A model generated the notes under the pieces. That model did no database searches and had not been told where the DNA came from. It worked only from the letters and a program-made list of their open reading frames with translations. Position numbers and translations under genes: made by a program. 64,000 bases of DNA from Squalus acanthias (taxonomy: Eukaryota). The stretch spans positions 69,504,001 to 69,568,000 of the forward strand of contig CM059432.1 of assembly GCA_030390025.1 (NCBI GenBank). Reading direction: 5' to 3'. Positions 16,886 through 24,056 of the stretch are shown here, piece by piece; positions within the stretch are counted from its first letter, which is position 1, and every line of letters starts with the position of its first letter.

Positions 16886-18735
16886 AATTTTTTTGTGCGC
16901 GGCCCCTCTAAATTTGCTGTGTGGCCGTGCACGTGTGGTAACTTCAAGCAGCAGCAGCTAGTGCCTGTTTGGGTGCGGGGGCCACGGGAGAGCCTGTGCG
17001 GGACCACCCGATTGGTGCACGGCTGCACACCTTAGAGGGAACATTGATTGCAGCCATGTCCTGGGAACTAAGCTGCTGACATTGATATCCTCATGACCTC
17101 TTCCCACTGGTGGTGGAGCTGTTGCCTGGAGGGCTTTCTGACTGCCCCCCCCCCCCCACCCCCCGAGAAGTACAGGGGCTCCTTCCTCCTGTGGACAGCC
17201 TCGACCCATGCTGCATCCGTGAACCTGGGTACCCTCTCTGTACCTCTTCCAACCATTTTAGCCCTTTCATAATGTTTCCCTGCTGTCTGCAGCCAGAGTG
17301 CACCTTCCCTTTAAGAGGTGCTAGTTGCCTATAAGTGCCGTGAGTAAAGCCCAATACCTCTCCCGCGGCCCCCCCCGCACCCAAACAGGCACCAGCCAAG
17401 AAATAGTGCCGGTATCGCTGACTGGACGCCTGATTCATTATAATAAGCTACCAGCACCAATTTCCCATGGTTCCTGCGACCATGTGAATAGGCACCTATA
17501 GCGGTGCGCGCCAACACCCGCCAACCTGTTTTCAGGCATGATCGAATTTCTAGGCCTATAACCCCGTATCTCACCAACTATAAGTAATAAGTATATGAAT
17601 TTGCAGAGAAACAAGTAGCGTTACAGCACGTACGCCATGCTATATTTTCTGTTCTTTTTGCTTACATTACTAAAGCACCAAACACATCGGCCTTTACGCC
17701 TCATTCTTAACCTTTATTAACCTTTTATCTCTCAGGTGGTACACCTTTCATATTTCTTGCAGGAGCTTGACAATACCAGCAAATAACTGAAACTCAAAAC
17801 ATATGGAATCAACTCGAAATGCTAATTAGCATTTGCTATAAGAAATAAAACAAATGAGCACACAAAAGGCAGTATTTGGATTGAAGGTTTCTGATAACAT
17901 AAACTGCCTTGTGCAACAATAGTTGATGTTGACTGTTTGATTTTTCCTTCCTGTGGGAAATCGCCTGGCTTCTGCTTATTGTCTCTGCATGGTGTTGTGG
18001 CTAGAATCAATAGTTCAGTGTGAGGAATCCTTATATTAATTAAATAATTTCAGTTGGGCTGACAGAAATCTTCTCGAATTAATGTTAAATTATGGAATTC
18101 TTATACAAATTTCAAGTAGCTTTTGTAAAATCCATCTTGAAGTTTATAACTTCTTCGAAGCAACTCAATTCAATTATTCAATTGTATTTTTCTACTGATC
18201 TCTTTTCATGTATATCCCTGTTAAAATTTACAGAAGATAAAATAGTCTGGTGCATGGATGGATTGAGAGTAACATACTGGTGATAATGAGCTATGATGAT
18301 ATCTAACACAGAAGAAAGAAAGCCCAGAACTCCGTTGCGATGGTGTGAATTATTCTGTACTATGCAGCTTGTGGTGTCTCGAAGTTGCTTTTGTGATACC
18401 ACCATCTGATGTTATCCATTAAATGGTGTTTCAGTATATGCATGATGGCTTTTGATATTCATACATTGGAAATATTGATTCTGTGTGTAGTGAAACTACA
18501 TTCTATACCAATATACTATTCAAAATAACTAGTAATGTGACAAGTACAGCAGTTCTGTCTTGTTACTTTTTTTAAATAAATGCTTAAAAGTTATGGTAGT
18601 CCAAATTCTACTCACATTCTTAAATCTAAAATGGTTGCTCAGCGACACATTCGTCAGTCAGGATAGCAGTGGAAACAGTGGAGGACCGGGCAGTGAGGCC
18701 GCCCATTTCTTGTCTGCCGCATCTAAAAATCACCA

Positions 18736-18916
18736 AAAATGAGAAGTCGCACAACACCAGGTTATAGTCCAACAGTTTTATTTAAAATTACGAGCTTTCG
18801 GAGCTGCAGCAGCTCCGAAAGCTCGTAATTTTAAATAAAACTGTTGGACTATAACTTGGTGTTGTGCGACTTCTCATTTTTGTCCACCCCACTCCAACAC
18901 CGGCATCTCCACATCA
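18736..18916. mobile_element. Fold-back (palindromic) Penelope-like insertion, family 1, 12-bp TSD
   Basis: ~70 bp near-perfect inverted arms centred near 18808 plus a 3' tail; flanked by TAAAAATCACCA at 18724-18735 and 18917-18928. Confidence 0.8.
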
Positions 18917-19329
18917 TAAAAATCACCAGGGGAAGATCCCAATTTCCTATCCCAGTGCAAATCTTACACCTGTCAAAGTCCCTCGGGGCTCATTTGCACA
19001 GCTGCACTGATCAAGTACACCTACGTTTCCTAGGTTTACGTCGCACCTGCAATCTATGTAACTTCAAACAGTTTAACAGCTCCACCTAGCATTTCAGGCA
19101 AGTGTGAGTGAGGAATTAATGAGCTGAAGAGACGCTAATTTCAATTACTGATTACAGGCTTTCGAGGAACTTTAAAAAAAAATCCTTTCCTTCACATTTT
19201 TAATCACTGACACCTAAACTTCCTTTTACTGTAGTGCTCTCTTGCTACCCACAATTTTTTTTGTGACCCCCCCGACTTCCTCTGTCCCAAATCCACACGC
19301 AGATCGACTTTGGACAAGGGATGACTTTC

Positions 19330-22778: not shown

Positions 22779-22876
22779 TGAATAGCTACCTTTTACCCCT
22801 ACTCTCTGCTTTCTGTCTTGAACAAAATTGAGAGGTCGCACAACACCAGGTTATAGTCCAACAGTTTTATTTGAAA

Positions 22877-22919
22877 TCACAAGCTTTCGGAGCTATCGAT
22901 TTGCTCCTTCCTCAGGTGA
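22877..22919 (-). ncRNA. Mirror-copy minimal hammerhead ribozyme on the opposite arm
   Basis: Exact reverse complement of 22926-22968. Confidence 0.75.
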
Positions 22920-22925
22920 AGCACT

Positions 22926-22968
22926 TCACCTGAGGAAGGAGCAAATCGATAGCTCCGAAAGCTTGTGA
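22926..22968 (+). ncRNA. Minimal type I hammerhead ribozyme (Penelope-associated type)
   Basis: UCAC-CUGAGGA-A-GGAGC-loop-GCUCC-GAAA-GC-UU-GUGA: complete CUGANGA/GAAA/UH core, stem I UCAC/GUGA, stem II GGAGC/GCUCC, palindromic AGCU in place of stem III. Confidence 0.78.
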
Positions 22969-24056
22969 TTTCAAATAAAACTGTTGGACTATAACCTGGT
23001 GTTGTGCGACCTCTCAATTTTGTCCACCCCAGTCCAACACCGGCATCTCCGCATTCTGTCTTGAAGCCAGCCAACCATCCATTCTGCTACCTGTCCTCTG
23101 ACTCCACATTCTCTGACCTTGTTCATCAGTCTATTATGGGGTACCTTATCGAAGGCCTTTTGAAAATCTAGATAAATTACATCTACTGTATTACCATTGT
23201 GTACTCTCTCTGTTACCTCTTCAAAAAATTCAATGAGGTTGGTCAAGCAAGACTTTCCCCTTTGAAATCCATGCTGACATAGTTTTTGGTTTCTAGATGT
23301 TCTTCTATTTTCTCCTTTAGTAGGGATTCCATTATTTTTCCTACCACCGATGTTAAGCTGATTGGTCGAAAATTCATTGGACATGTTCTATCCCCTTTCT
23401 TATTGTACAGAAGTTTCTGGGGGAGAGGGGGGGGGTCAGCAACTTACACCGTTTCTACATTCAAGTCACACCAGAGCTACACCAAAAATATCTCAATGAA
23501 CTTAACCCAAGAAATGTTTGTGTAAATCCCTCTGATGGTGAACGTGTAACTTACATAGGATATACGGCACAGAAACAGGCCATTCGGCAGCCCAACCAGT
23601 CCTTGCCGGACTTACTGATGCAACAGCATTGTAACTGACATTAAGAAAATTAAGGGTCTAAGGCCAGGAAATTTCTCAGAGCTTCTCTTGCTCTGCTGAT
23701 GTTACTTTGCTGAAAGTCTCACCTTCCTTCTACAGGCTTTTGCAGGCCAGATTTGATGTCACCTAATCACTACTTATTGAATTACTAGCTCTCCTATTCA
23801 ACTTTGTTGCGTCTTGTGGTGTCCAGAACTATGCGGCATGGTCATTCATCTTGCCTTCTCAACATAAAAATGTTTTATCACTAATAGCTATAATTGATAA
23901 CTATAAATAATTGGCATCAAGACTGAAAGTAACCATAGTATAGTCAAATATATTAATCATAAAGCAAAATCAGATTAATTTTACACAGCAAAATATTTTA
24001 CATTTGCATTACATGTTTTACTGCAAACATTAATTATGTTCCTATTTTCACCATAG

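What the first reader, a model, noticed from the sequence alone, without database searches (positions are those of the whole stretch)
22811..23065. Perfect ~200 bp hairpin insertion with an intact hammerhead ribozyme on both strands
Seen: a perfect inverted repeat flanked by a 12-bp TSD; each strand reads UCAC CUGAGGA A GGAGC-loop-GCUCC GAAA GC UU GUGA. Established: Penelope-like elements carry minimal type I hammerheads with a palindromic stem III that work as dimers. Inference: whichever strand is transcribed, including the RP1-PLAT pre-mRNA, carries a ribozyme together with its perfect antisense arm. Folding would compete between self-cleavage and a long dsRNA hairpin (ADAR/Dicer substrate). 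It lies ~1 kb upstream of the first PLAT acceptor and could be a small non-autonomous ribozyme retroelement (retrozyme-like).
Basis: partly seen in the sequence, partly recalled or inferred. Interest (0 to 1): 0.75.

Follow-up and report, generated by a model that had tools for sequence, protein, structure and literature searches.

The report
Shark Penelope retrotransposon hairpin stub
This mirror-image insertion is one of over a thousand similar stubs of a very common shark jumping gene; its self-cutting RNA motif is predicted to be silenced here, but the family's ends and symmetric target site suggest the element likely copies its RNA onto both strands of the cut at once.

Summary
Observation confirmed: a 100-bp perfect inverted repeat, a 30-nt one-sided tail, a 12-bp TSD and a minimal type I hammerhead on each strand. 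It is not a retrozyme. It is the shortest common form of insertion of an abundant Neptune-type Penelope-like element (RT + GIY-YIG parent found; 74,219 hammerhead-motif matches; 1,383 hairpins with this centre). The layout inverted pLTR + tail + TSD is published. In read-through RNA the antisense arm always comes first and the ribozyme fold is predicted absent, so the proposed cleavage-versus-hairpin contest is unlikely. Family data bear on an open mechanism: 59 of 83 unselected insertions are head-to-head; the tail-less arm is usually the longer (31 vs 10); 3 of 53 join arms of two subfamilies; arm ends pile up at a TATA/Inr-type start just before the hammerhead, with no clear peak at its cut site; targets share a dyad, CTGGC-N12/13-GCCAG. 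Best reading (inferred): both 3' ends of a symmetric staggered cut prime cDNA, run to the RNA 5' end and are joined.

The parts
22811..22822 (.). Left target-site duplication (12 bp)
   Evidence: family TSDs are 12-14 bp in 48 of 59 head-to-head insertions
22822..22921 (-). Inverted (tail-less) pLTR arm; outer end at the inner tail boundary, its outermost base shared with the TSD
   Evidence: outer ends at -7..+6 of the tail pattern in 43 clean events
22877..22919 (-). Minimal type I hammerhead motif on the - strand (predicted cut after 22881)
   Evidence: mirror of the + copy
22922..22923 (.). Hairpin centre; A22923 is the inferred transcription start of the parent element (Inr-like; TATA 31 nt upstream in long copies, absent here)
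   Evidence: start site inferred, not mapped on RNA
22924..23023 (+). Sense pLTR arm
   Evidence: 98.5% to the pLTR of full-length copy L061
22926..22968 (+). Minimal type I hammerhead: stem I 22926-29/22965-68, core 22930-36, extra A 22937, stem II 22938-42/22952-56, GAAA 22957-60, palindromic stem III region 22959-64, predicted cut after 22964 (U at position 17)
   Evidence: activity untested
23024..23053 (+). One-sided Penelope 'tail'; in full-length copies it runs on to the start codon a few bases further
   Evidence: 9,002 exact matches of a 34-nt tail pattern
23054..23065 (.). Right target-site duplication
23066..23070 (+). Right half of the dyad target (GCCAG, exact); the left half (22805-22810) is a partial match
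23043..23401 (-). LINE fragment that served as target (CR1/L2-type label recalled, not tested)
   Evidence: tblastn, E 8e-27 and 9e-10; the same LINE site is hit in the opposite orientation in L028 and L049
24057..24217 (+). PLAT-like exon of the host gene, 992 nt downstream
18724..18928 (+). Second, older family hairpin in the window with its own 12-bp TSD; centred in stem II, so without the CUGANGA core

Best explanation
This is a promoterless, ORF-less stub of an abundant Penelope-like retrotransposon, and its hairpin shape was likely made at the moment of insertion by copying the first ~100-130 nt of the element's RNA twice, once onto each strand of the cut target. Shown: the parent (3.1-kb unit, RT + GIY-YIG), the family, the TSD, the tail, the variable arms, the dyad target preference. 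Inferred steps: (1) the endonuclease, likely as a dimer, cuts CTGGC-N12/13-GCCAG-like sites symmetrically and leaves 12-14-nt 3' overhangs; (2) each overhang primes cDNA on the sense RNA through about 2 nt of homology, one at the outer and one at the inner end of the tail; (3) both cDNAs run to the RNA 5' end, 7 nt before the hammerhead core, usually on the same RNA or RNAs of one source copy, now and then on two different RNAs; (4) the two cDNA ends are joined by microhomology or a few untemplated bases. A hammerhead on both strands is a by-product. The motif is under selection in the source elements, but in this copy it is predicted to be masked by its antisense arm, and the insertion is most likely a neutral intronic passenger.
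For: Parent: L061 holds two pLTRs 3,136 bp apart around an 877-aa frame (RVT_1 E 2e-9); L118 has an 858-aa frame with RVT_1 (E 8e-9) and GIY-YIG (E 7e-4, below cut-off); homologues carry PF00078, PF26215 and in part PF01541, the closest named from sharks. Unselected sample (83 loci taken by position on contig 1): 59 have an adjacent inverted arm, 66 a TSD of 8 bp or more; tail-less arm longer by >10 nt in 31, tail arm longer in 10, within 10 nt in 18 (31 of 41, p=0.0015). Fold-back of the tail-primed cDNA cannot give a longer tail-less arm. Arms share subfamily variants (131 shared non-majority calls; 1.1% difference within loci, 3.9% between), yet 3 of 53 listed loci join arms that differ at two diagnostic sites (counted by eye). 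40 of 142 arm ends fall in -97..-83 against 22 in -82..-10 and 20 in -170..-98; 1,383 hairpins have both arms ending there; TATA is 31 nt upstream and the site fits Inr; the base before the start is G 41, A 14 of 100 listed (by eye; 26 vs 11 after dropping G or A explained by the other arm, p=0.001). Dyad target: >=4/5 match to CTGGC left 23 and right 25 of 49 (controls 24 of 294), and 34 and 26 of 78 in a second set (controls 22 of 468). Microhomology averages 1.9 nt at both junctions in 43 events. In vitro, the anole PLE protein cuts and extends both strands, starts at two internal sites that bound the tail, prefers uncleaved RNA and is predicted dimeric (PMC11167929).
Against: 10 of 59 loci have the tail arm longer and 18 are symmetric, which fold-back also explains; later deletions in palindrome centres can make either arm longer; chimeric arms could come from ectopic gene conversion. 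The start site is inferred: no raw RNA reads were available and contigs show no starts. In one subfamily the arms often end one or two bases further out with an extra C, not G, which the cap reading does not explain, and C was as frequent as G (45 of 100, about 10 of them templated). The window's own centre lacks one base on the left arm and does not show the extra G. Target sites were not thinned for homologous LINE copies, which inflates the dyad counts. The anole enzyme preferred AT-rich ATT sites and non-homologous starts, unlike the pattern here.
Confidence: 0.7

Rival explanations
1. Same Penelope origin, but the inverted arm is made by self-priming: the first cDNA folds back on itself, or an antisense transcript primes on itself, as proposed for Adineta Penelope elements.
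For: PMC3846280 Discussion reads palindromic junctions as self-priming on an antisense template. Arms nearly always share variants. Many centres are short palindromes or microhomologies. 28 of 59 loci are symmetric or have the tail arm longer.
Against: Tail-less arm longer in 31 of 59, by over 100 nt in 11; 3 of 53 chimeric loci; both outer junctions show equal microhomology to a dyad target, as if both primed; both strands are extended in vitro.
Confidence: 0.17
2. The stub is the collapsed remnant of a longer palindromic insertion whose centre was deleted later, with arms kept alike by conversion.
For: Multi-kb palindromes exist in the family (L061 2.9 kb, L064 2.3 kb in all); junctions favour microhomology.
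Against: Deletion does not predict a pile-up at one TATA/Inr-defined position nor extra G there; simple non-inverted copies also end there (L088, L112).
Confidence: 0.08
3. One reading: a small non-autonomous ribozyme retroelement (retrozyme-like) that moves as a unit and whose RNA switches between self-cleavage and a Dicer/ADAR hairpin inside the host pre-mRNA.
For: 40 near-identical 230-bp copies were scored in one search; some centres recur; three low-level A>G sites appeared in guessed-RNA contigs, two of them absent from both DNA runs.
Against: Centres and outer ends differ copy by copy; arm length is a continuum; no tandem direct repeats; no promoter; ribozyme stems have predicted probability 0.0 in the read-through RNA and the antisense arm is always made first; the A>G hint was not repeated within the arm in three other runs.
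Confidence: 0.05

Closest known systems
Inverted-pLTR + tail + TSD insertions of EN+ Penelope-like elements (Adineta Pen2a_Av, PMC3846280; general layout in PMC8557442 and PMC2377424; passages read)
   Same: [quoted passage not shown]
   Different: Here reduced to two ~100-bp arms without ORF, in over a thousand copies; TSD 12-14 bp; dyad target; published account invokes self-priming and calls the origin of these structures undefined.
Neptune clade PLEs (definition in PMC8557442, passages)
   Same: C-terminal GIY-YIG with two cysteines inside the motif and a CX4CxxC linker finger before it.
   Different: No phylogeny was run, so Neptune versus Nematis rests on the motif and on the vertebrate host; targets here are not microsatellites.
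Poseidon element of Anolis, in vitro (PMC11167929, main text read)
   Same: Two internal start points that bound the tail; both strands extended; uncleaved RNA as template; hammerhead near the ORF start.
   Different: Different clade; preference for ATT sites and non-homologous starts; ORF starts inside the hammerhead there, about 90 nt after the cut here.
Minimal PLE hammerheads (PMC4209133, results and discussion read)
   Same: Short stem I, extra base between 9 and 10.1, G10.1-C11.1, palindromic stem III region; paired motifs 100-700 bp apart on opposite strands were already reported in Schistosoma.
   Different: 74,219 motif matches here against about 4,000 and 9,000 reported for coelacanth and Xenopus (different descriptors); U at position 17.
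Non-LTR retrozymes (bioRxiv 10.64898/2026.07.22.740005, part 1 of 5 and passages)
   Same: Non-coding, type I hammerhead, derived from PLE pLTRs.
   Different: Retrozymes are direct tandem repeats with two or more same-strand hammerheads; this is one inverted pair with a TSD.
L1 twin priming (recalled, no call)
   Same: Both target strands prime cDNA and give an inversion.
   Different: L1 inversions do not copy the same stretch twice; here the two arms overlap entirely and start at fixed internal sites.

Membership tests
EN+ Penelope-like element insertion | Linked parent with RT and C-terminal GIY-YIG in one ORF | tested here: met
   L061, L118; (GIY-YIG E 7e-4, under Pfam cut-off, motif residues visible)
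EN+ Penelope-like element insertion | pLTRs in direct and inverted arrangement | tested here: met
   L061: two direct pLTRs plus a 2.9-kb inverted arm; 59 of 83 inverted
EN+ Penelope-like element insertion | 30-40-bp tail at one end only | tested here: met
   23024-23053
EN+ Penelope-like element insertion | Target-site duplication | tested here: met
   12 bp here; 66 of 83
Neptune clade | CX2-5CxxC linker finger plus CCHH-type cysteines within GIY-YIG | tested here: met
   visible in the translations; definition
Neptune clade | RT phylogeny with reference Neptune elements | not tested
   no named reference set at hand
Minimal type I hammerhead of PLEs | Core CUGANGA, GAAA, UH; extra base before G10.1; palindromic stem III | tested here: met
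   in 82 arms picked without the motif, C3, G5, A6, A9, G12, A13, A14, A15.1, U16.1 never vary, G8 once, U4 is C in 11, loop II varies widely (downstream flank is equally invariant)
Minimal type I hammerhead of PLEs | Covariation in stems I and II | tested here: met
   31 haplotypes: 97.8% cells paired, 2 of 9 pairs with two-sided change, slid controls 23-47%; sequences are related and were picked with a core descriptor
Minimal type I hammerhead of PLEs | Rfam hammerhead model match | tested here: not met
   the minimal PLE form was found by custom descriptors in PMC4209133, so this lowers little
Minimal type I hammerhead of PLEs | Self-cleavage as dimer or with protein | not testable with these tools
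   bench test; genomic arm ends show no clear peak at the cut
Non-LTR retrozyme | Direct tandem repeats with two or more same-strand hammerheads | tested here: not met
   one motif per strand, head to head
Non-LTR retrozyme | Moves as a unit of fixed length | tested here: not met
   continuum of arm lengths and differing centres
Non-LTR retrozyme | Circular RNA | not testable with these tools
   only contigs available

The most novel reading that the evidence does not exclude
Shark Neptune-type elements integrate by a symmetric double target-primed reverse transcription: a dimeric enzyme recognises a dyad site (CTGGC-N12/13-GCCAG), both 3' overhangs prime at the two tail boundaries, and these hairpins are pairs of 'strong-stop' cDNAs that reached the capped RNA 5' end and were joined instead of jumping. 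The ~41 nt from start site to hammerhead cut would then act like a retroviral R repeat: cleavage of the downstream hammerhead would set the RNA 3' end and let the strong-stop cDNA transfer there, rebuilding the pseudo-LTR. That would explain inverted pLTRs, the tail, partial tandems and the role of the ribozyme in one scheme.
Probability: 0.25. Interest if true: 0.72.

Novelty: new member of a known kind. Interest (0 to 1): 0.38.

Why it matters
The single insertion is ordinary. The family matters because how Penelope-like elements make inverted pLTRs, tails and partial tandems is called undefined in the field (PMC8557442, PMC2377424, passages), and this genome holds thousands of young, clean insertions that give sharp predictions: a dyad target, a 12-14-nt symmetric cut, two start sites, a stop at the RNA 5' end and rare two-template chimeras. 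All can be tested in the existing in vitro system. A Penelope enzyme with a defined dyad target that extends both strands would also interest those who build RNA-templated insertion tools. Separately, thousands of intronic perfect hairpins are a likely large source of dsRNA in shark cells (untested).

Tried and rejected
Rfam: no hammerhead hit. Ends at the hammerhead cut as in vivo proof of cleavage: first suggested by a few loci but not upheld. Three-mismatch end counts were 119 at the cut (-52; 27 of 30 inspected were true ends), 74 at -50 and 34 at -56 (filters not equal), a modest excess at most; 4 of 100 right arms began at -52 against 15 at an AAG microhomology and 6 at a GT one; arm ends were -47: 15, -48: 11, -49: 20, -50: 4, -51: 19, -52: 11, -53: 5, -54: 6, further out 9 of 100 (by eye; the pattern favours short arms). 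In one search, 7 of 50 listed loci had both arms ending at -52, but that pattern could not show shorter ends. A small cleaved fraction is not excluded. Three apparent chimeras (L185, L187, L189) differ at one CpG site picked by the search and were not counted. Reads: no raw RNA reads; contig layings could not show starts, strand, expression or editing of this locus. PDB search of the parent protein gave nothing under E 0.4. Pfam missed the endonuclease in the frameshifted L061 copy. Literature searches for twin priming, strong-stop/template jump and a palindromic or staggered target in Penelope elements and for shark Penelope palindromes found no statement of these points; subscription papers (the 2004-2006 Penelope papers) and the supplements of the papers read were not seen and may hold them. 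Search of earlier scan notes by sequence and for the dyad returned nothing.

Full report
1. The observation. Bases 22822-22921 pair perfectly with 22924-23023 around a 2-nt centre; a 30-nt unpaired stretch follows (23024-23053); a 12-bp direct repeat flanks the whole (22811-22822, 23054-23065). Each strand carries a minimal type I hammerhead motif with a predicted cut after 22964 on +. Rfam finds no hammerhead. A PLAT-like exon starts 992 nt downstream on +; the gene name RP1 was not tested. The insertion lies in a LINE fragment.

2. What it belongs to. The 231-bp insert has at least 40 near-identical full-length matches in the genome, each with its own TSD and a centre that differs from copy to copy. 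A 34-nt tail pattern matches 9,002 times exactly and a tight hammerhead pattern 74,219 times, with 0 for reversed controls. Locus L061 holds the parent: two pLTRs 3,136 bp apart, the tail running into the start codon of an RT frame, and a 2.9-kb inverted arm in front. L118 has an 858-aa frame with RT and GIY-YIG; it shows the CX4CxxC linker that marks Neptune and Nematis elements (definition in PMC8557442). The closest named homologues are from sharks; I did not determine the species. The layout inverted pLTR, one-sided tail and TSD is published for Adineta and Drosophila elements (PMC3846280; PMC2377424; PMC8557442), and paired hammerheads on opposite strands were noted in 2014 (PMC4209133).

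3. An unselected sample. I took 83 of the first 100 tail matches on contig 1 (left out: two that are L061, six in L062-L064 viewed separately, nine not fetched). Coordinates below are relative to the first base of the tail pattern (window 23017). 59 of 83 have an inverted arm next to the sense arm; 66 have a TSD of 8 bp or more, 12-14 bp in 48 of the 59. Arms range from under 20 bp to 2.9 kb. The inverted arm ends outward at -7..+6 and the tail arm at +32..+47, with a mean of 1.9 nt shared with the target at each junction in 43 clean events of 53 (about 0.33 expected by chance, my arithmetic). The window's element is thus the short end of a continuum, not a fixed unit.

4. How the hairpin forms. 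The tail-less arm is longer than the tail arm by more than 10 nt in 31 of 59 loci, shorter in 10, equal in 18 (p=0.0015). A cDNA that starts at the tail and folds back cannot copy what it never made, so fold-back fails for the majority unless later deletions are invoked. Arms nearly always share subfamily variants, but 3 of 53 listed loci join arms that differ at two diagnostic sites (by eye), which needs two templates or later conversion. Targets are symmetric: the flanks read CTGGC and GCCAG around an AT-rich 12-13-bp TSD, in the unselected set (23 and 25 of 49 with at least 4 of 5 matches; controls 24 of 294) and in a second set (34 and 26 of 78; controls 22 of 468); sites were not thinned for homologous LINE copies. 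The window's own site has the exact right half, and the same LINE site is hit in the opposite orientation in L028 and L049. The anole PLE protein cuts and extends both strands, starts at two internal sites that bound the tail and is predicted to be a dimer (PMC11167929). Together this favours priming from both 3' overhangs of a symmetric cut. This is inference; the published alternative is self-priming on an antisense RNA.

5. Why it has this size. 40 of 142 arm ends fall in -97..-83 and 1,383 hairpins have both arms ending there, against 168 centred near the cut site. In long copies a TATA box lies 31 nt before A(-93), which fits an initiator. The base in front of that A is G in 41 and A in 14 of 100 listed arms (by eye; 26 and 11 after removing those explained by the other arm, p=0.001), as expected if the cap is copied (known for L1, recalled). 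Against this, C was as common, and one subfamily tends to end slightly further out with an extra C. I read the site as the RNA 5' end; it corresponds to window 22923. The stub therefore lacks the promoter. The hammerhead cut (-52) shows no clear peak: 119 ends against 74 and 34 at neighbouring positions with unequal filters, 4 of 100, 11 of 100. This agrees with the in vitro finding that uncleaved RNA is the main template.

6. The ribozyme. Across 31 haplotypes stems I and II are 97.8% paired, with two-sided changes at 2 of 9 pairs; in 82 arms picked without the motif the core is nearly invariant while loop II varies freely, though the downstream flank is just as invariant. The motif is thus likely kept by selection in source elements. 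In this copy, alone it folds stem II with probability 0.79-0.96, but in the read-through RNA 0.0, at a cost of 70 kcal/mol; head-to-head geometry puts the antisense arm first on either strand. Contig data could not test expression or editing.

7. What is known and what is new. It works like, and is a member of, the EN+ Penelope-like insertions with inverted pLTR and tail; it is not a retrozyme. Earlier notes of this scan report the same hairpins in at least 16 genomes, several with the two-strand and start-site readings; I reached these before looking and tested them here, and those notes are not independent support. One note argues for ends at the cut; this genome does not bear that out as a rule. 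I found no statement of the dyad target, the arm asymmetry or the chimeras in the library or of the dyad in scan notes; subscription papers and supplements were not seen. Papers: PMC11167929 and PMC4209133, parts 1-2 of 4; the retrozyme preprint, part 1 of 5 and passages; PMC3846280, passages and Discussion; PMC8557442, PMC2377424, PMC12910113, passages.

8. Verdict. Real, ordinary as a locus, useful as a family. Identity about 0.95; double-priming mechanism about 0.7; the fuller strong-stop and R-repeat scheme about 0.25. Interest 0.38.

Noticed in passing
window 18724-18928: Second, older hairpin of the family with a 12-bp TSD, centred in stem II and lacking the CUGANGA core: the hairpin forms without a whole ribozyme.
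   Followed up: partly
L004, L011, L035, L048, L050, L096; L009, L045; L031, L027; L032, L033, L037; window, L028, L049: Independent insertions hit the same few sites in LINE-like repeats again and again, in either orientation.
   Followed up: partly
L038, L048, L051, L055, L059, L115: A subfamily with U4 changed to C in the hammerhead core (11 of 82 arms) also spread, together with a compensatory change in stem II.
   Followed up: partly
L061:678-6853; L064: Multi-kilobase near-perfect palindromes (arms up to 2.9 kb, over 99% alike) survive in the assembly.
   Followed up: no
L104: An insertion into the element's own pLTR with a 12-bp TSD, giving nested hairpins.
   Followed up: no
L061:6672, 6729, 6738: Low-level A>G in guessed-RNA contigs, two of the three sites absent from both DNA runs; a faint hint of editing at family level only.
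   Followed up: partly
one search list (subfamily with GGGGCGATCG): Arms often end with an extra C two bases before the inferred start, not with G; unexplained.
   Followed up: no
   Followed up: partly
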